Source: Kondoa subrosea
Lineage: Eukaryota
Assembly (NCBI GenBank): GCA_039545335.1
Contig: BCIN01000001.1
Location: forward strand, 4,191,347-4,234,854
Length of the DNA: 43,508 nucleotides
Reading direction: 5' to 3'
Shown: positions 8,794 through 24,081 of the stretch, one piece after another
How the letters are laid out: every line of letters starts with the position of its first letter
Position numbering within the stretch: the stretch's first letter is position 1
Position numbers and translations under genes: made by a program
The notes under the pieces: model-generated
The model's input: the letters and a program-made list of their open reading frames with translations, nothing else
Database searches by the model: none
What the model was told of the DNA's origin: nothing

Positions 8794-11700
8794 ATGTCGG
8801 GCAAAAGGAAGAGGGATGATAGTAGAGGTGGCAGCAGTCGTAGAGGTAGAGGAGATAAGAAGAGACAGCGTACGAGTAACAGGGATGCAAGAAGCATTCA
8901 GGTCCAGAAATCAATGCAAGCCAAAGGTGAAGTAGCTCGAACTTGCTCATATGCGTATCTGCTGACTGGAGAGGCTACAGACTCTCGCGCTGGCTTACCT
9001 GACAATGTGGAAGTGGAACCTTTCGTACAGGTCTGTTTGCGCTTTCATACATGACTTCACTTTAGAAGGTTGATTATGTACTCAGGCTCGTTCTTTCGAA
9101 ATCGTAGCTTTGGAGAGAAGCATGCAATCCGCAAAGTCAGTAGATGAAGTGGTTGTGCAATCTTCATGCTCATCTGTTTCCATCTTTTGACAGAAACGCT
9201 GGAGCACAAAGAGCTTTTCAATCCCTACCTCGTCATTTACGTAGACGTGCAGCAAGTCATGATCTCCGTCGCTTACCTGTAAGACTACGAGCGAAAGCTT
9301 TGCGTGAGGTAAGTCTGCTCTCTCATCGATTCTTCTTCAGAATTAATGAGTTGGGAGTTTTACAGGTCGAGAAAGATAAGACTATTGGACCGAAGAAACG
9401 TAAACTACGCGATCTACCTTTCAAGAAGAAGATGAAGCTTCTCAAGGGCAAAGGCTTTGGTTACAAAGACAAGCTGATGAAACGTAAAGGTGCGAGATCG
9501 GGCTCTGTCGTAACCTTAGTTGCTTATGCGGTCACTCCTTCTGGTACAGTCGCCAAAGGCTGGTTGGAGACACATCTCTGGCATGCAAAGCGAATGCACA
9601 TGGTCAATCTTTGGGGTCGACGAATAGTCAGCTTTGATCTCTCCACCTAGATTAACCTTACATACTTTGAGCAGGCCATGACACCTACTGAGAAATCTTT
9701 CAGACCTGCTTATCGAGCTGCGCAACATGGTTGTATAGCCCACGACGCTTCTTACACCGATACTTTTATCTTGAGCTGGTCTTTTGCGGAACTTAAAGCC
9801 GTCTTTGGTAGAATCTGTGATCCTACTGAAGTATCTCCTTCAGCTGTTCGGTGCGTACGATGCTCAAGATATTCAGCCTTTTAGCTTATTTTGAACCATC
9901 CTGATGCACAGATTTAATTCTGGAGCGAGAATCTGTACTTCTACTATCTATGCAGCTGCAGACTTTCCTTTTAACCTTATTGGCTCAATCCAAATCTTAT
10001 GGGATCCTCTACCACCTCATGTAACAGCAACAGATCAAACTAAACGAACAATTACAATCTTTACTCATCCTTCTATAAGTGGAATGGTTCAACGTCAATT
10101 AAAATCATCAATCGAAACAGTCGAAACCGATCGAATACTAGATTATGAAAGAGAAATCTCTTCTTTAGCTAATTTAACGGTTAATCCAGCTGAACAAGAT
10201 TTCAAAGAAAAAAACGAAAAGAAATTGATCCTTTTACAACAAGAAAGAAAGAAATGGTTGTACAAACCTGTTCTGATACCTAAAGAAGGAACGAATGTTT
10301 TTGAATTCGTTGGACCGGAAAGTGGTGCGGTTTTGTACAAGTTGTTGAGACCTGTTGTTGGTACTGCGATTGATAAGACTGAGGTGGGTTCATGCCACTA
10401 GCTCCTGGAATGGCGATTGAAAAACTTGGTCCTGTTAGTTCTTGAGATTGGTTTCGTTACAAGGTCCTTCAGCTATTGGTGTTGGAGTACTTGTACGGAT
10501 GGACGTCTACGATCCTAGACTGAGGTCAGTCTCTTGTGAATTACAACCATGTTGTGCAGTTTCTCAGGAAGGGAATGACAGTTTCCCACCACGCAAAAAT
10601 GCTCAAATCCAGCCCAATCCGAAAGCTAAAGTTCTAGGCTCTACCCAACTGTATCACTCTGAAAGGAACATCTTCGATCAAGGTCCTCCCAGATACAGCA
10701 AACTAGCGCTAGATGAGCGTCGAAAGCAGAACAGGGAGATGAGCGAAAGTACTGGTTTACGACCCGAAGCGAATGATGATCGAGTACCTATTATCATCTA
10801 CAGACAAGACATCGCTTCTGGTAACAAAGATTCTATCAGTGGACTTACTCTTGTGGTACCGAAAGATTGGGGTATGGCATTCTGGCACTCGATTGCCTAC
10901 TGTTCTGTTCGCATTGGAGGACAGAGGGAGAAAGCTCAACAACACTTCGAAGCTGGTCAACCTACTTTCCCGCAAGATTACTTACTTTCTCAACCTGGAT
11001 TAGAGATGTGGACGATGATCAAGAACCATTGGGAAGAAAGTTGGAAAAGGAAACCACCTGCCAAAAGAGTCAATTACCTGAAAGCTGGAACATTGCATCC
11101 CTGGAATCTAAGCGCAACGGCTTTCTTACCCACTTCCGCCGATCAAGGTATCAAATCACCTATCTTGCTTCGAGGCAGACTACTCTCAGATTTATTGGAG
11201 TACTTTGATCGTCAAGGCAATTCGCCTCGGTTCAGTGATACACCAGAAGCATCAAGCCAAATCAAACTCGCCGATGCAACAGGCGCTGTGCTTCATAATG
11301 GAATAGCAGAAGCATACAAGAAGAAAGGTTTACCGCTTATTACCAACATGATGCATCATGCTATTCTCTTTGAACGACTTTACGATCAGATCTGCGTAAT
11401 GGCTAGATTGATCCCTCTCAACAAGGGTTCACCCGAAGATATGGCAATGGTCTATTCTTTGTCGGATGAAGAGGAATGGAAGCGATGGTGCGGTGTGTTG
11501 AGACGGCAGAAGCTTGATGAGAGTGTCGAGATCGATTATGAGGAAGTGAGTGATCTTTAACATTGCCTTCATTTCTTGCTGAGAGATCGATCAGGATCTG
11601 GTACTCGATAACAAGAAAACTCTTATGGGCTTAGTCACTTCTGGTAACCATTCTCTTAAGCGAGCAAAAGGCTTTGGCATTTGCACCATTTCGTTGTCTG

Positions 11701-14638: not shown

Positions 14639-16418
14639 TTAGAGCACGAATACACCTGTCAAGTCCATTCTTTCGCGAAGGTCGACCTTGAAGCCATTAC
14701 TCTCTTGCTGCCTAATATCACGAACCAGCCGTTGGGCCTTGTCTACGGTATCTCTACTGATCATATTGTATGACAAGCTGTTCATCGCTAAAGAAAGACG
14801 GGTTTTTGAGCGGAGTTTCGCTTTGCTTTCGCAGAAGCACACTTACCTGAATCTAATGATATCACTTCTGTCGCTTCCAAAGCTGCAAATACAAGAGCTA
14901 TAGCCCAAACGGGCTGCAAGATAAGATTTAGCGTGAGCGAATGAGGAAAAGAGAATACCGTACTCGCAAAGGGTTCAACTTCGAGTTGCGCTCGACAATA
15001 TGCGAGGCGATGATACGATGAGCTGCTTGAACTGGTGGGCGAGGAAGCTTGATCGTATTGATTGGTTGAACGCGGTGAAAGAGACGATTGATGTAAATGA
15101 TACAAGTATTGAAAAGTGCTGAGGAGAGTAAGAGATTGCCAGTAGCTACTGAGATTTGCGCGTGCTGGTCATAACTTGAAGTAGATAGAAGTTGATCATT
15201 TGACGATGGATCGATAGCAGGAGCCAGAGTGCAAATTTCTGCTTGAAGGATTTGCAATTCATTGATGAGCTGAAGAAGATCTTGACGATTTGATATTGTT
15301 TCGATCTGCTGCAGACGCCGATGTAGGTTACTGAGGCGTGACAGAAGCCAAAGGGTATATAAGACATTGCGTAAGGTTCCAGCGAAATGAGAAGAAGGAT
15401 CTTCGACGTCGATGGTTGGTACAGAAGTAGTGGCTGTAGTGAAGGTTTCGGTGCCAATCATCGACAGGAAGTTGCCACATCCAAAACCAAATATTGACGC
15501 GCGCAAATCCAGAGTAGCAATAACCAAACATATTCGTTTCGCAGTCGGCCCAAAGTGATCGAAGTTCATACCTACATCGATCAGCTTTTGGTTCCGGACG
15601 CTGATACATGGTCACCTACTGGGTAATCGTCGAATAATCTTGCATGCGATGTCAATTCGAGCTTGCAGATGAGCGTGATCTGATCCACAAGCCGTTTCGT
15701 ACTCGCAAACCGCTAAGCTAGCAGCGATCAGCCACTCGAGATCTCTGCCGCCGGTTGGCGTTACTCTTTCTGTGCCCAAAGGAAGAGGTCCATACAAAGT
15801 AAAGCGATTCCATGCTTCAGTCGGTAAAGAGGAAGCGAAGTTTTCATGGCGACCTAGATCTTCTTGCGGAGCTCGGGTAAGATGCATGGCGCTAAGAGCT
15901 AAGAGAGTGCCGAAAAGAGTTGGGTTCTGCAATGCTTGTTTGTGTATCGAAGCTGCATAATCGATAACGCGTGTGTCTCTATCTTGCGCTTTGCGTGCCA
16001 TGGATAAGAGGAAATGTTCCACTAGTTGTTGATCGCTTGGGATCTTGCTTTCTTGGCTTTCATTTTGAGGGATGAGCAAATCAGAGGAGAGAAATTGGGT
16101 CCAATCGATGTCAGCAAAGGTTTCGGGCGCATCTGTCTCTTGTAAGGTGTTGAAGGGAGCTGCAGTAGTGTAAAGAGTAGACCCAGAAGCCACAGGCTGT
16201 TCATACACAGGTGACGGCATGTAAGGCGAGAAGCTCTCATAAGCTTTCGGTCGTGCTTTTGCTTTGGTCTTCAGTGTTGATTGGGGATATTCGCAGTCCA
16301 GATTCAGGGATAGACATCCGGTGCAGATAGGTCTCTGCTCATTGCATTTGACATGACGCTGTCGACAAGACAGGCAGCCGGCTCTTGATCGACTGAACTT
16401 TTGCTTCCGCTCGCTCAT
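14639..16418 (-). CDS. Zn(II)2Cys6 fungal transcription factor
   Basis: RSRAGCLSCRQRHVKCNEQRPICTGCLSLNLDCEYP is a canonical binuclear cluster. Downstream LFGTLLALSAMHL and the following helical exons fit a fungal TF regulatory domain. The 3' end is inferred from the last ORF segment ending at 14639. Confidence 0.9.
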
Positions 16419-16731: not shown

Positions 16732-18445
16732 ATGGCAGCTCCCGGAGGCCTGCCTGCTCGTGTCCTCGTAACATATCAAGATGAAGAAATCCTAGTCAAG
16801 CGCGTTCCTTCTGTCAAGCAGCTCATCTCGCTTTGTCTGCAAGAATTCGAACTGACAGGTCCTGCATGTGATTATCGCATTTCGCTAGCTGGACATATAC
16901 TCGGAAATTCAGTCTACGAAGATCTTGCACCGGAGCCTCTGCCGCAGCTAAATCTCGTCGAAAAGCCGAAGCCCAGATTGTCGCAGGCCGGAACTCAAGC
17001 TGCAAGCACTTCAGATGCGTTGGTCAATACAACCATAGCGGGAAATACAAATCAAACGGATTCTCCGAGTACTGGTGTCACAGCAAATCAAAGCAGCTTC
17101 AGTACAGCTGCGGAATTGGCTGTAGGAGATGAGGTAGGGGACTGGACTGTCAGAAAGGCCGTACGTCCACATGGTCGCAGGTCTTCGCAAGCCTGATGCA
17201 GGAATTCAGGCTATAGTCGCACGCGCTACTGGAGCTTGCTTCCCTTCCTCGCAGCAGCCTTCCGCTCAATATCGGCCGCTATCTCAGCCCTCAGGCGAAT
17301 CTTCTACTGAGCCTACTCTCCACCCAGAACAGCGAAAGGAACCTATTTCGACCGATCCTGTGCCCTCTTCTACCCGACAGAACAGCTCTCTATCTGCCAC
17401 ACCAGCAGTTTCTCATCCACCACCGGCTAAATACCAAAAGACTACTCATGTAATACAGCGGGGTCAAGATCCAATCTCCCCATTTAACAATTATACATTT
17501 GTCATGCCTGTTCATACGTATACAAACTACCAAGCCAACTTTAGCACTCTTTCAGAAGATCAAATTCGAGGCGCGTATAATTCTTGCCATGGCAATTACA
17601 TCAACACTTTCAACCAACTTATTCTGTCAGCCGAAAAACTGTCAGCTGCCGCCGCCGCAACCGGAACTCAGCCTACAACAATGAATCAAACGGTACAGTG
17701 TGAATATTGTGATTGGAAGTCATGCAAAAGCGGGGGTTTGAAATCCAAATGCGCAATGCTCAAACGAAAAGCAGCTAAGAAGGCAAGAGAGGTGAAGGAT
17801 CAGCAAATTATGAGATCCACGTGTCAAAGCAAGACAAGTAAAGCACCTTCAGCTGCATCTTCTGCTCCGGCTGCTTCTGCTCCTCGAAGGAGTCCTCGCA
17901 AATCTGTGCGGAGAGGAGCTCAAATCCCAACGGCGCTGGGGGGATTTACTGCGGCAGAACAAGCTTTGATTGCTCGAGCTAAAGAAAGTCTGGAACAGAG
18001 TACGGTCTTAGAAGTGCTCCAAAAGCAATGCATCATCAAGACTTGGAGAGATCTTGGTCCGAGATCTATGCTTGGCTTGACCGATGCTGCACGAAACTTG
18101 GCAGATATTCACTTGATGCAGAATAATGGTGATGAAGCGGAGTGTCCTTATATTTTCAAGCTAGCAGTGGACGTTTCGTACTTTGACAGCAGTCGCTCCG
18201 ATCCGATCATCATTGTAGCAAAGAAGACTACTTCGATATGGGATATCATACAAAGATTGGCAAAGTTACTCAAGTTACAGAACATCAACCTGGACCTTAC
18301 TCGTGAAATCGAAACTTGCGATACAACTAAATGTATCGGGGAATTGGAAAGCGAGACATCAGGGATTTCTGAGAGCGGTGAACATGAAGGCTTCGCGGTG
18401 GTCGGATTATATGTATTAAGATTGCCAAATCGTACGTGGATTTAG
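16732..18445 (+). CDS. Hypothetical protein, possibly with ubiquitin-like folds at both ends and a central CUE/UBA-like helical motif
   Basis: ORFs 16732-17196 and 17171-18445 are probably joined by an intron (gtaggg...ctgatgcag at ~17134-17201). The 424-aa open frame supports coding. Domain calls are pattern-based only. Confidence 0.65.
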
Positions 18446-19183: not shown

Positions 19184-21291
19184 ATGACTTCGACAATGCA
19201 CAGCGTGCTGCGATTGGACGAGATACCACATGAATTGGTACCTTTGTGGCAATGCGCCCTGGATAGCTATACCCTTGCTAACCAATTCGAAGTGAAAGAA
19301 ACTCAGAATCGCTCGCTTTATTTCTCAATCGCGCAAAAGCTGGCTGCACAGGCTGGCTATGCTCTCAAATGGTCGAGTCTGATACCTCTTGCTGCTTGCT
19401 ATGGCAAAACAAATCGTTCTGCCGTCTCTGCAATACTAGAAAATGGCGATTCGCAAGAATTGGCAGATGACATCCTTCCAGCTTTTCAGCGCCAAATAGA
19501 AACGCTGAACGAGACCAAGAATCTTACAATGAAAGATCTTGATCGAATGCACAAGCTTTCGCATTTGCTAGTCTGTCTATGTTGGACTTCTGCAACAGCG
19601 TCAAGTCTCTTAGCTGCTAACAAGACTTTCATGCTGTCTCTCTCTACACTCTATTCTCATTCTTCTACTCTACTGAAACGAATACAAGTAAAAGAGCCGC
19701 TCTCACCAGAAGCAAAGCAATACTTGAATACTCGCATCAATCTTTTGACTACTGTCTCGACTGCGCTGGAAACATACTTCACGCCCTCTCTTTCAAGCAT
19801 GGATCAAATTGAACCTCTGGCAGATCTGATGTTAGCACTGCTAGATCAACCTGAGTCAGAATCGTTAGATGAATTGGCGAATGGTCTGCTCATTGACCTG
19901 GAAGCGTACTCTGAAGTGTCTACTTGGTTCGGAACAAGAGTGCAGGGTAAAGTGAAAGGAGATGATAGACTGGAGTACATTAAATCGAGCTTGGTCTCAC
20001 TTGAAGCGGCAAATAGCAGGAGAGCGCTTGATCTGCTGCAATCGGAAGGAACTGACGCGAAGGTACCTAGTCACCATGTCTTGTATTCGTCACGACTAAG
20101 TATGATGATGCCAGGCCGAAACAAAGAGCTCACCGCTACAAGAAGCTATTGAAGCTGTCCTCTCTATTTTGCCTGATCAAACAACAAGTTTCCTCACCAA
20201 AGCTTTCCAGCATCCTTCTTTCCATACCGACTCGACATATCATGTCGATCGATTGGTCTCTGCTATATTAGAAGGAAATCTGCCATCCTCTTTCCTACTC
20301 AATCCAGCAGCTGCAGATTTCTCTCCTACAGCAACATCACCTGAGCTTAATCCAAATGCAACAGAGTTCTCCTTCCCTGCAACATCTCCTTCAGCTACTT
20401 TCAATCCTTCTGCACCTTCTTTCACTCCTGCTACAGCAACTAAACCCACTTTGCTAAGTCAACGAGCCAATATTTACGATTCCCAACCTTTGACTCAGGA
20501 AGATTTGATCTGGAAACAAAAGAAAGAAGCGTTAGAACGGGATGTACGAATCAGTGATGATTTGAAAAAGACTATAATAGCTATGGCGGAACATCAATCT
20601 GATTCAGAAGATGAGGATGAACAATATATCAGAGCTTCAGGTTGGGAAGATACTAGAGGAGTTATTGGTGGAGAAAGAAGTATTCCTTTGGATGAATATG
20701 ATGATTATGGTTTACATCTTACTGGTACGAATGCAAACAATGCGGAAAGGGATGAAGAGGATTCAGAAGATGAAGCTGCTGCTGCGGCAGAGAAGGGACC
20801 GTTCAGTCAACGGATTGTGGATTTGCTGAGTGCTGCTTATGTGGAGCATGGATTGGATGTGTTGTTGAGGATCAAACCTATGGATAAGAAGAAAGCTTCT
20901 CCTGCTAGATTGGAATTATTGGACAAGCTGAAGCGAGCTGGTTGGAATGATGGCGGTGAAGATTTGATCGAGAGTTGGGGCAAGCAGCTTGATCGAGATG
21001 TGAGTTTCACATTCCTTGCCCGAAAGAACTTGCGCTAATTTTGCCTTGCAGCCCAAGAAACAGAAAAGACTAGCCGCTTTCGAATTTGCTGGCAATCGTT
21101 CAACAGCTCCTTCTGGACCAAGCAATTCAAACAGAGGAAACGATCGTGGTCGTGGAAGAGGCAGAGGCGGTCCTTCGAGTCGAGGCGGATCCGATAGCAG
21201 TAGAGGCTCTCGAGGAGGAGGTCAACGGGGAGCACATCAACGAAGACAAAGAGGTCACGATAAAAAGACTAGAGGTGGAATAATGGGATGA
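19184..21291 (+). CDS. CUE3: CUE-domain protein, Cue3/ASCC2-like subunit of the ribosome quality-control trigger complex
   Basis: Helical N-terminal region; CUE-like AIEAVLSILPDQTTSFL...VDRLVSAILEGNLP; RANIYD; acidic DEYDD; IESWGKQLDRD; RG-rich tail ending RRQRGHDKKTRGGIMG. This matches the architecture I know for fungal Cue3/ASCC2. Two introns (~20064-20114, ~21000-21051). Confidence 0.8.
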
Positions 21292-22885: not shown

Positions 22886-24081
22886 ATGTCCGCTAAACCA
22901 GCTTCAACCCAAGCAGCAGCAGCAGTGGAAGAGGAAGATCTAGATGACTTAGACGACGTCTTGACAGAATTCTCTAAACCTGCTCCATCTACTGCTGTCC
23001 CTTCTTCTTCCAACAACAATACTACAACAAATGCTGAGGATCCACCTGAAGCTGAAATGGATTCTGATTTTCTTGCTGCTTTATCAAAAAACATGGAATC
23101 CCTGTTCAGCAAGAACTTAGCTCAAGATTCATCATTAGGAGGAGGGAATGAGGATATGAAAGCGTTCTTGGAAGCTATGATGACTTCTTCAGCAGGGGCA
23201 GGTGGTGATGGAGTATCAGAGGAAGAAGTGAACAGAGCAATGTCTGATTTGGATAGTAAACTAGCTGCGGCCTCTAGTAGTAACAATAAAGGAAAGGCGA
23301 AGGAGAGTAAAGGGTTTCAACATGCTATTAAGAGTACTGTGGATAAGATGAATGCTTCAGATGCATCAGCAAGGGTGCGTTTTCTTGTCTACTTTTGCAT
23401 CAGTGCATAGTCAGACATGGAAAGCTCACAGGCCGAAATGAACGCTTCTACTTCTGCAGCATCAGATCCATTGGCTTCTATTCTTGCCAATCTGGAAAAC
23501 GGTTTATCGGACGATCCAAACTTACAATCCGCTCTAGACGAAATGATGTCTCAACTAATGTCCAAAGAATTACTCTACGAACCAATCAAAGATCTAAACG
23601 AGAAGGTAACTCATCATCCCTTCTCTCCATCTTCTTTTGATTGTACTCTCTTTACTACTATAGTTCCCGGAATATCTAGCAACTCATAAAACTACTTTAC
23701 CAAAAGAGGAATTCGATAGATACACGAAGCAATACAAGATCATTCAACAGATTTCTGCCAAATTTGAAGATCCCAATTACACTGATGATGGTTCTAAACC
23801 GGAAGAGACCGCAGAGCTTGTTAACCTTATGCAAGAGGTGCGTTTACACATTGCGGTTTTCAGCTTGAATGCTGATGCTGCAGGTTGGTGGATGCACAGA
23901 TGCAAGCTTGTGGAGCTCGTCAGTCTGAAGCGAGTGTTCCATCAACCTTATACTGATGTTAAATTTCGCTTGGCTGACAGCACCGAAAGAACTTATGGGC
24001 GATATACCTGGAATGGATTTCGGTGCAGACGGAATGCCAGCTTTACCTCCTGGTGCAGTTCCAGATTGTCCTCAACAGTAG
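22886..24081 (+). CDS. PEX19: Peroxisomal membrane-protein import receptor Pex19
   Basis: N-terminal EEDLDDLDDVLTEF Pex3-binding motif; MMSQLMSKELLYEPIKDLNEK; MQE-MQACG..P; C-terminal CaaX CPQQ-TAG. Confidence 0.95.

What the first reader, a model, noticed from the sequence alone, without database searches (positions are those of the whole stretch)
20289..20429. Cue3/ASCC2 homolog carries three tandem PAM2-like (poly(A)-binding-protein-interacting) motifs
Seen: directly after the CUE domain lie LLNPAAADFSP, ELNPNATEFSFP and TFNPSAPSFTP at 16-18-aa spacing. Established: PAM2 motifs (LNxxAxEFxP) bind the MLLE domain of PABP, as in eRF3, Ataxin-2, PAIP1/2 and Tob. Cue3/ASCC2 binds K63-ubiquitinated collided ribosomes for the Slh1/ASCC3 splitting helicase. 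I know of no PAM2 array in yeast Cue3 or human ASCC2. Inference: this lineage may physically couple the ribosome-splitting complex to Pab1, for example to target ribosomes stalled in poly(A) tails or to link splitting with mRNA decay. This is the best candidate for new biology in the window.
Basis: partly seen in the sequence, partly recalled or inferred. Interest (0 to 1): 0.72.

Follow-up and report, generated by a model that had tools for sequence, protein, structure and literature searches.

The report
Fungal Cue3 with triple PAM2 insert
A fungus has added three copies of the short peptide that docks onto poly(A)-binding protein to the ubiquitin-reading subunit of its ribosome-splitting machine, which may tie ribosome rescue to mRNA tails, but the insert is missing from the relatives examined and binding is untested.

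Summary
The three motifs are real, at the stated place and spacing (16 and 18 aa), in a three-exon gene of 667 aa. The protein is an ASCC2/Cue3 orthologue. Its modelled N-terminal domain matches human ASCC2 best (Z 18.5, next 11.4), and a basidiomycete family profile aligns end to end (E 2.8e-31). The array is a roughly 40-aa insertion in the unstructured linker after the CUE domain. It probably arose by tandem duplication, so it is one origin, not three. Only motif 1 keeps all three residues shown essential for Ustilago Pab1 binding (L, F, P). The genome's Pab1 MLLE domain keeps the contact residues. Against a conserved role: 0 of 151 homologues match the PAM2 pattern, including the three nearest that span the linker (29-41% identical). 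No close relative was available. PAM2 triplets (Upa2), PAM2 plus CUE (plant CID5-7) and PAM2-based poly(A) quality control (MKRN1) are known, and the Upa1/Upa2 PAM2s were dispensable. I found no PAM2 on Cue3/ASCC2 in print. Verdict: a lineage-restricted, probably Pab1-binding accessory tether. Moderate interest.

The parts
19184..20062 (+). Exon 1 (293 aa): ASCC2/Cue3 N-terminal helical domain, the Slh1/ASCC3-binding part in yeast and human
   Evidence: AlphaFold2 model, pLDDT 83.7. Top match 6YXQ_B, human ASCC2: Foldseek E 1.4e-3, TM 0.58; VIA Z 18.5, rmsd 3.4, 254 aligned, next Z 11.4. Family HMM E 6e-07.
20063..20114 (+). Intron 1 (52 nt, GT-AG, phase 0), inferred
   Evidence: Splice dinucleotides and frame; the joined model aligns collinearly to the family HMM. 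No RNA evidence.
20115..20999 (+). Exon 2 (295 aa): CUE, PAM2 array, RxNIxD motif, acidic region, small helical bundle
20133..20273 (+). ASCC2-type CUE domain (aa 300-346)
   Evidence: Three helices, pLDDT above 90. Foldseek rank 1 is the ASCC2 CUE 2DI0 (E 0.92, prob 0.98, TM by target 0.63); VIA Z 6.2, rmsd 3.9, 62 aligned. Family profile hits 2DI0 at E 0.0015. No direct Pfam CUE hit.
20298..20327 (+). PAM2-like motif 1, LNPAAADFSP: keeps L(0), A(+4), F(+7), P(+9)
   Evidence: essential positions from PMC11572963 section 9; no Pfam hit on its own
20346..20378 (+). PAM2-like motif 2, LNPNATEFSFP: keeps L, N(+3), A, E, F, but has F where the +9 proline should be (FxF, resembling the PAM2/PAM2L FxY hybrid)
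   Evidence: Pfam PAM2 13.7 bits
20400..20429 (+). PAM2-like motif 3, FNPSAPSFTP: F in place of L(0); keeps A, F, P
   Evidence: Pfam PAM2 17.7 bits
20463..20480 (+). Family-conserved RxN[IV][FY]D motif that closes the linker
20799..20999 (+). C-terminal small helical bundle (continues into exon 3); same place as the four-helix bundle of yeast Cue3
   Evidence: yeast layout from PMC9938168 passages
21000..21051 (+). Intron 2 (52 nt, GT-AG, phase 0), inferred
   Evidence: Relatives P0001-P0005 diverge from the family at the same point, as an unspliced intron would cause.
21052..21291 (+). Exon 3: RGG-rich region and the family's basic RGHDKK tail
   Evidence: Family HMM E 1.2e-05

Best explanation
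The gene is this fungus's Cue3/ASCC2 (shown by profile and fold). In its own lineage it gained a PAM2-type peptide in the floppy linker behind the CUE domain, and tandem duplication made three copies (inferred from the DNA and the alignments). Most likely at least one copy binds the MLLE domain of Pab1 weakly, and the repeat adds avidity by engaging neighbouring Pab1 molecules on one poly(A) tail (inferred by analogy with Upa1 and Upa2). With the N-terminal domain on Slh1 and the CUE domain on K63-ubiquitin chains (known for yeast Cue3, assumed here), the array would be an accessory third tether. It would enrich the splitting complex on Pab1-coated mRNA and favour collisions in or near poly(A) tails, where the 3' mRNA that Slh1 must grip is covered by Pab1. 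It probably tunes quality control rather than being required for it.
For: Orthology; 19 of 120 homologues carry a source label 'activating signal cointegrator complex subunit 2'. Pfam PAM2 is over the cut-off on the 57-aa piece; the motifs lie in a low-confidence coil. L-to-F spacing of 7 and P at +9 are the residues needed for Ustilago Pab1 binding (KD 15 uM), and motif 1 has all three. The genome's Pab1 MLLE has Q, E, Y and K at the spacing of Ustilago Q573/E577/Y580/K593 (read). The copies differ at 37% of core bases yet all keep hydrophobic(0), N, A and F; a neutral simulation kept that pattern in 138 of 81,141, 118 of 70,079 and 138 of 81,158 runs. The Upa2 triplet binds more strongly with more motifs. 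RQT needs an accessible 3' mRNA overhang. Slh1-like and Rqt4-like genes are present.
Against: 0 of 151 homologues match the strict or loose pattern, and 0 of 51 hit Pfam PAM2 at E up to 10. The nearest linker-spanning relatives P0006, P0008 and P0009 have linkers of 50, 20 and 30 aa without the motif, against 62 here. No single motif reaches the Pfam cut-off. Motif 2 lacks the +9 proline and motif 3 the leucine. Invariant columns are not significantly enriched at consensus positions (P 0.45), and the spacers are also similar between copies. The simulation uses a pattern chosen after the fact on a locus picked for matching it, so it is not a p-value. In Ustilago the verified PAM2 motifs of Upa1 and Upa2 were dispensable. 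No expression evidence.
Confidence: 0.55

Rival explanations
1. Functionless look-alike: one chance PAM2-like word in a Ser/Thr/Pro/Ala-rich linker was tandemly duplicated and is drifting. It may bind MLLE weakly in vitro but does nothing in the cell.
For: Absent from 151 of 151 homologues. One match arises in 0.4% of linker shuffles, and only one origin is needed. One unrelated homologue, P0130, has a partial LNxxAxEF match at the same slot without the proline and without a Pfam hit. Linker length and sequence vary freely (median 31, maximum 55 aa in 124 parsed homologues). No enrichment of invariance at consensus positions.
Against: All three diverged copies keep the anchors, seen in about 0.17% of neutral runs. 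There is no other match in 87,012 window codons or in 87,532 homologue residues. The host is a translation quality-control factor, the kind of protein in which PAM2 motifs are known.
Confidence: 0.25
2. Localisation tag: the array binds Pab1 and, through the FxF motif 2, the Rrm4 MLLE3 domain. This places RQT on transport mRNPs, endosomes or stress granules rather than selecting poly(A) stalls.
For: A PAM2 carrying the PAM2L tyrosine (FxY) bound both MLLE domains in Ustilago, and motif 2 has FxF in that register. The genome encodes an Rrm4 MLLE3 homologue (E 3e-26 to 8S6N). The known fungal multi-PAM2 protein Upa2 works in endosomal mRNPs.
Against: The PAM2L core is FxY, Y-to-A abolishes binding, and the Tyr hydroxyl contacts K732; FxF was not tested in the sections read. 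There is no acidic run before the F as in PAM2L. No localisation data.
Confidence: 0.12
3. Brake, not hook: Pab1 binding restrains RQT/Slh1 on polyadenylated mRNAs, sharpening the discrimination against non-poly(A) (viral) mRNAs.
For: In yeast, ski2 slh1 double mutants no longer distinguish poly(A)+ from poly(A)- mRNA, and Ski2/Slh1 are placed downstream of poly(A)/Pab1 (review PMC13517382 passages).
Against: No evidence read that Cue3 takes part in that Slh1 function. No PAM2 on Cue3 is reported for yeast, where the effect was shown. Nothing here addresses the direction of the effect.
Confidence: 0.08

Closest known systems
Human ASCC2 (PDB 6YXQ_B, 2DI0) and yeast Cue3/Rqt3 of the RQT/ASC-1 complex
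   Same: Same order of parts: N-terminal helical domain, CUE, helical bundle, flexible tail.
   Different: A roughly 40-aa PAM2-like triplet follows the CUE. None was seen in 151 basidiomycete-type homologues and none is reported in the searches. Full-length yeast Cue3 and human ASCC2 linkers were not scanned here.
Ustilago maydis Upa2 (four PAM2 motifs, central triplet) and Upa1
   Same: Basidiomycete protein with a PAM2 triplet that binds the Pab1 MLLE domain, more strongly with more motifs.
   Different: Upa2 is an endosomal mRNP scaffold whose PAM2 spacing is conserved in several basidiomycetes. Here the host is a ribosome-splitting subunit and the array is so far in one genome.
Human MKRN1
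   Same: PAM2-dependent PABP binding places a ubiquitin-system protein at poly(A) for ribosome quality control.
   Different: MKRN1 is a RING ligase that acts upstream, with one PAM2 conserved across metazoans. Here it would be the ubiquitin reader of the splitting step.
Plant class C CID proteins (Arabidopsis CID5/IPD1, CID6, CID7)
   Same: PAM2 and CUE in one polypeptide.
   Different: No ASCC2 N-terminal domain is described; CID7 carries DUF1771 and SMR instead, and the family is conserved across land plants.

Membership tests
ASCC2/Cue3 | N-terminal helical domain of the ASCC2 fold | tested here: met
   VIA Z 18.5, rmsd 3.4, 254 aligned to 6YXQ_B, next Z 11.4; Foldseek rank 1; family profile E 0.0017 to 6YXQ_B
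ASCC2/Cue3 | ASCC2-type CUE domain after the helical domain | tested here: met
   Family profile's best hit is 2DI0, E 0.0015; the model's best Foldseek hit is 2DI0, but weak (E 0.92); 31 of 51 homologues hit Pfam CUE at E up to 10; the protein itself does not
ASCC2/Cue3 | Best and only family member in the genome (reciprocal test) | tested here: inconclusive
   The family HMM scores this gene at E 2.8e-31 and the six Pfam-CUE loci of the genome at E 0.9 or worse; exon 2 finds only itself.
ASCC2/Cue3 | Partners Slh1/ASCC3 and Rqt4/TRIP4 encoded in the genome | tested here: met
   L017 best matches yeast Slh1 (E 2.5e-25, ahead of Brr2 at 9.5e-23); a zf-C2HC5 gene is over the cut-off
ASCC2/Cue3 | Binds K63-linked ubiquitin and Slh1 | not testable with these tools
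   Known for yeast Cue3; assumed here
PAM2 motif (PF07145) | Pfam score over the curated cut-off | tested here: inconclusive
   22.8 bits on a 57-aa piece, 14.1 on the exon; single motifs none, 13.7 and 17.7 against a cut-off of 20
PAM2 motif (PF07145) | L at 0, F at +7, P at +9 (each needed for Ustilago Pab1 binding) | tested here: met
   Met fully by 1 of 3 motifs (motif 1). Motif 2 lacks P(+9) and motif 3 has F for L.
PAM2 motif (PF07145) | Lies in an unstructured, accessible region | tested here: met
   Coil, pLDDT about 44-56 over residues 61-110 of the exon-2 model
PAM2 motif (PF07145) | Conserved among orthologues | tested here: not met
   0 of 151 and 0 of 51 by Pfam. The nearest linker-spanning relatives are only 29-41% identical, so conservation in close kin remains untested.
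PAM2 motif (PF07145) | Binds an MLLE domain | not testable with these tools
   Needs a binding assay. A cognate Pab1 MLLE with the contact residues exists.
PAM2L (Rrm4 MLLE3 ligand) | FxY core preceded by acidic residues | tested here: not met
   Motif 2 has FxF after one acidic residue

The most novel reading that the evidence does not exclude
This lineage evolved a direct, multivalent link from the ribosome-splitting complex to Pab1, so that RQT reads ubiquitin and the poly(A)-Pab1 coat together. That would be a solution to poly(A)-stall recognition convergent with metazoan MKRN1 but placed at the splitting step. Motif 2 may also couple RQT to Rrm4 transport mRNPs.
Probability: 0.25. Interest if true: 0.72.

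Novelty: new variant of a known kind. Interest (0 to 1): 0.45.

Why it matters
RQT needs free mRNA 3' of the stalled ribosome, yet at a poly(A) stall that mRNA would be coated with Pab1 (inference). Yeast genetics also puts Slh1 downstream of poly(A)/Pab1, and my searches found no physical link between Cue3/ASCC2 and PABP. A natural Cue3 with a built-in Pab1 hook makes both questions testable: graft the 53-aa linker into yeast Cue3 and ask whether splitting at poly(A) or non-stop stalls, or poly(A)+/- discrimination, changes. Being found in one genome so far, it would be an instructive variant, not a general rule.

Tried and rejected
Complex prediction of the PAM2 linker with the genome's Pab1 MLLE, given as its two exons in separate chains, without alignments: no answer, score 0.00 in 2 of 2 runs, no controls folded; it is not evidence either way. 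Word-indexed search with exon 2 against longer proteins: 0 of 4,612 candidates. Two metagenome scans for close relatives: 0 of 118 and 0 of 384 pattern matches confirmed. Sequencing runs: 2 DNA holders of one sample that may be the source; no RNA holder listed. PDB sequence search with exon 2 (6 weak unrelated hits) and with the PAM2 linker (0). ESM Atlas on exon 2 gave only CUE clusters at 0.85-0.86, a lead only. Tandem Repeats Finder does not detect the array: the copies are too diverged. P0041 against the own genome found nothing. The C-terminal bundle's homeodomain-like matches (Z up to 6.7) were rejected as a common helix arrangement. The one paper holding 'PAM2' and 'Cue3' uses PAM23 as a plasmid name. 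Rejected ideas: that the three motifs are independent evidence (they are duplicates); that the conserved 'EF' before RxNVFD in agaric homologues is a PAM2 remnant (no L/N/A pattern). The supplement of PMC4466420 listing 14 Ustilago PAM2 candidates could not be read, so I cannot say whether U. maydis Cue3 is on it; the smut orthologues I scanned lack the motif. PMC87206 is not held.

Full report
1. Observation. Window 20289-20429 (+) reads as 47 aa holding the three motifs, starting at 20298, 20346 and 20400. They lie in exon 2 of a gene with exons 19184-20062, 20115-20999 and 21052-21291 (two 52-nt GT-AG introns; 667 aa). The splicing is inferred; no RNA was available. Motif starts are residues 355, 371 and 389, so the spacing is 16 and 18 aa, as stated. 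Pfam PAM2 passes its cut-off on a 57-aa piece (22.8 against 20) but not on the exon (14.1). Singly the motifs score nothing, 13.7 and 17.7. None equals the consensus xxLNxxAxEFxP quoted in PMC4466420 (passages; comparison). With a pattern I fitted after seeing them, they are the only 3 hits in 87,012 six-frame codons of the window. Linker shuffles gave one or more matches in 798 of 200,000, two in 1, and three in 0.

2. The host protein is ASCC2/Cue3. A full HMMER search with exon 2 gave 10 relatives. Two profile searches added smut and agaric orthologues (23 hits; 134 hits, 120 listed), and 19 of those 120 carry the source label 'activating signal cointegrator complex subunit 2'. An HMM built from the 120, without any window sequence, aligns to the model from residue 39 to 661 (E 2.8e-31) and hits each exon separately. 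Exons 1 and 3, which were not in the query that fetched the set, score E 6e-07 and 1.2e-05. The six Pfam-CUE loci of the genome score E 0.9 or worse. A 51-sequence profile finds both solved parts of human ASCC2 in the same order: N-terminal domain 6YXQ_B (E 0.0017) and CUE 2DI0 (E 0.0015), beside a glycine-rich false hit at E 0.0016. The AlphaFold2 model of exon 1 (pLDDT 83.7) matches 6YXQ_B best by Foldseek (E 1.4e-3, TM 0.58) and by VIA-align (Z 18.5, rmsd 3.4, 254 aligned; next 11.4). The exon-2 model shows a confident three-helix domain whose best match is 2DI0, though weakly. The layout agrees with yeast Cue3 (PMC9938168 passages). No yeast Cue3 chain appeared in these PDB lists. Slh1-like and Rqt4-like genes are in the genome. 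The organism is a basidiomycete by inference from these relatives and its Rrm4-type gene.

3. The array is a lineage-restricted insertion. It aligns as an insert between the CUE end and the RxN[IV]FD motif. The linker is 62 aa here, against a median of 31 and a maximum of 55 in the 124 of 151 homologues that my parser resolved. Of the other 27, 18 were shown by eye without a motif, 4 had no CUE end found and 5 are fragments that start after the linker. The strict and loose patterns match 0 of 151 whole sequences (87,532 residues). Pfam PAM2 hits 0 of 10, 0 of 22 and 0 of 51 in three overlapping scans. One homologue, P0130, has a partial match at the slot of motif 1. The sample is skewed to agarics and smuts and is partly redundant. 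Only three nearer relatives span the linker (P0006, P0008, P0009; 29-41% identity), and all lack the motif. Two metagenome scans found no closer kin. So conservation in close relatives is untested, while deep conservation is excluded in this set.

4. One origin, then duplication. The units share 15-20 of 30 bases in the core and have related spacers, so they are not independent matches. They have diverged by 37% in the core, yet all keep hydrophobic(0), N(+1), P(+2), A(+4) and F(+7). A neutral star simulation kept the pattern in about 0.17% of runs (138 of 81,141; 118 of 70,079; 138 of 81,158). This suggests selection but is biased by how the locus was picked. Invariant columns are not enriched at consensus positions (P 0.45).

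5. Would they bind? In Ustilago, L132, F139 and P141 of the Upa1 PAM2 were each needed for Pab1 MLLE binding (KD 15 uM), with contacts to Q573, E577, Y580 and K593 (PMC11572963, section 9 read whole). Motif 1 has all three residues. Motif 3 swaps L for F. Motif 2 has F at +9, giving FxF, which resembles the FxY hybrid that bound both Pab1 and Rrm4 MLLE domains. The genome's Pab1 MLLE has Q, E, Y and K at the same spacing, and an Rrm4 MLLE3 homologue exists. I put in-vitro binding of at least one motif at about 0.7 and a measurable cellular role at about 0.3; these are judgements, not results.

6. Mechanism. Shown here: the domain layout, the insertion, its disorder and the presence of the partners. 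Known from yeast: Cue3's CUE and Rqt4 bind K63 chains independently and partly redundantly (PMC9831982 passages), and splitting needs an accessible 3' overhang. Inferred: the triplet adds a weak, avidity-based tether to Pab1 beside the ubiquitin reader, enriching RQT on Pab1-coated mRNA and perhaps on collisions in poly(A). The rivals are a functionless duplicated look-alike (0.25), a localisation tag to Pab1/Rrm4 mRNPs (0.12), and a brake that spares poly(A)+ mRNAs, suggested by Ski2/Slh1 genetics (PMC13517382 passages; 0.08).

7. Comparison and novelty. Each ingredient has a precedent: the Upa2 triplet, which binds Pab1 but is dispensable (10.1101/455378 passages); Upa1, likewise; PAM2 plus CUE in plant CID5-7 (PMC4574140 passages); and PAM2-dependent poly(A) quality control by MKRN1 (10.1101/516005 passages). 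Unchecked notes of this scan also list triple and seven-fold PAM2 arrays in giant viruses, and none on Cue3. The combination on ASCC2/Cue3 did not appear in these library searches: PAM2 + CUE domain, 3 papers (one read in passages, two seen as listings); PAM2 + Cue3, 1, irrelevant; ASCC2 + PAM2, 0; Rqt3 + Pab1, 1, where Pab1 is only in a reference title; ASCC2 + PABPC1 + ribosome collision, 3 reviews seen as listings only. The library lacks most subscription papers, and the supplement with 14 Ustilago PAM2 candidates was unreadable.

8. Verdict. It works like a PAM2 tether on a true ASCC2/Cue3, but it fails the conservation test in the available relatives and has no binding evidence. New variant of a known kind; interest 0.45, and 0.72 if the functional coupling is shown (probability about 0.25).

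Noticed in passing
L013:460-1569 (- strand; G000:C1 near 783,600): A DEAD-box helicase exon (Pfam DEAD 147 bits; Ded1-like by my recall) begins with a PAM2-like SNPSAPAFVPR, close to motif 3.
   Followed up: partly
L010:1447-1581 (- strand; G000:C5 near 626,050): An unidentified gene seems to begin with a PAM2-like MNPDAPAFVPR; best own-genome PAM2 score, 18.6 bits.
   Followed up: no
L011:1018-1935 (+; G000:C6 near 579,130): A protein without a clear Pfam family carries LSPEATEFVP, a PAM2-like motif (15.1 bits).
   Followed up: no
L003:1468-1716 (- strand; G000:C8 near 674,100): Rrm4-type MLLE3 domain in an RRM-containing gene (E 3e-26 to 8S6N), so the endosomal mRNA transport factor appears to be present.
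   Followed up: partly
window 20750-21072 and P0001-P0005: The C-terminal bundle of this gene and its five nearest fragments shares lineage-specific insertions (YxEHGLxVLL, GWxxGGEDLI) not seen in smut or agaric orthologues.
   Followed up: partly
P0130 (homologue, residue 451): LNRIAAEF at the same distance from the CUE end as motif 1, without the +9 proline or a Pfam hit; 1 of 151, about chance level.
   Followed up: yes
window 29278 and 37371 (+): Two 32-aa frames score identically against the family HMM, which hints at a duplicated stretch about 8.1 kb apart.
   Followed up: no
window 10499-11560, 15612-16418, 22886-23410: Neighbours: POP1-like (POPLD 100 bits), a Zn2Cys6 factor (46 bits) and Pex19 (24.8 bits); the upstream ORF 17171-18445 has no confident Pfam family.
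   Followed up: no
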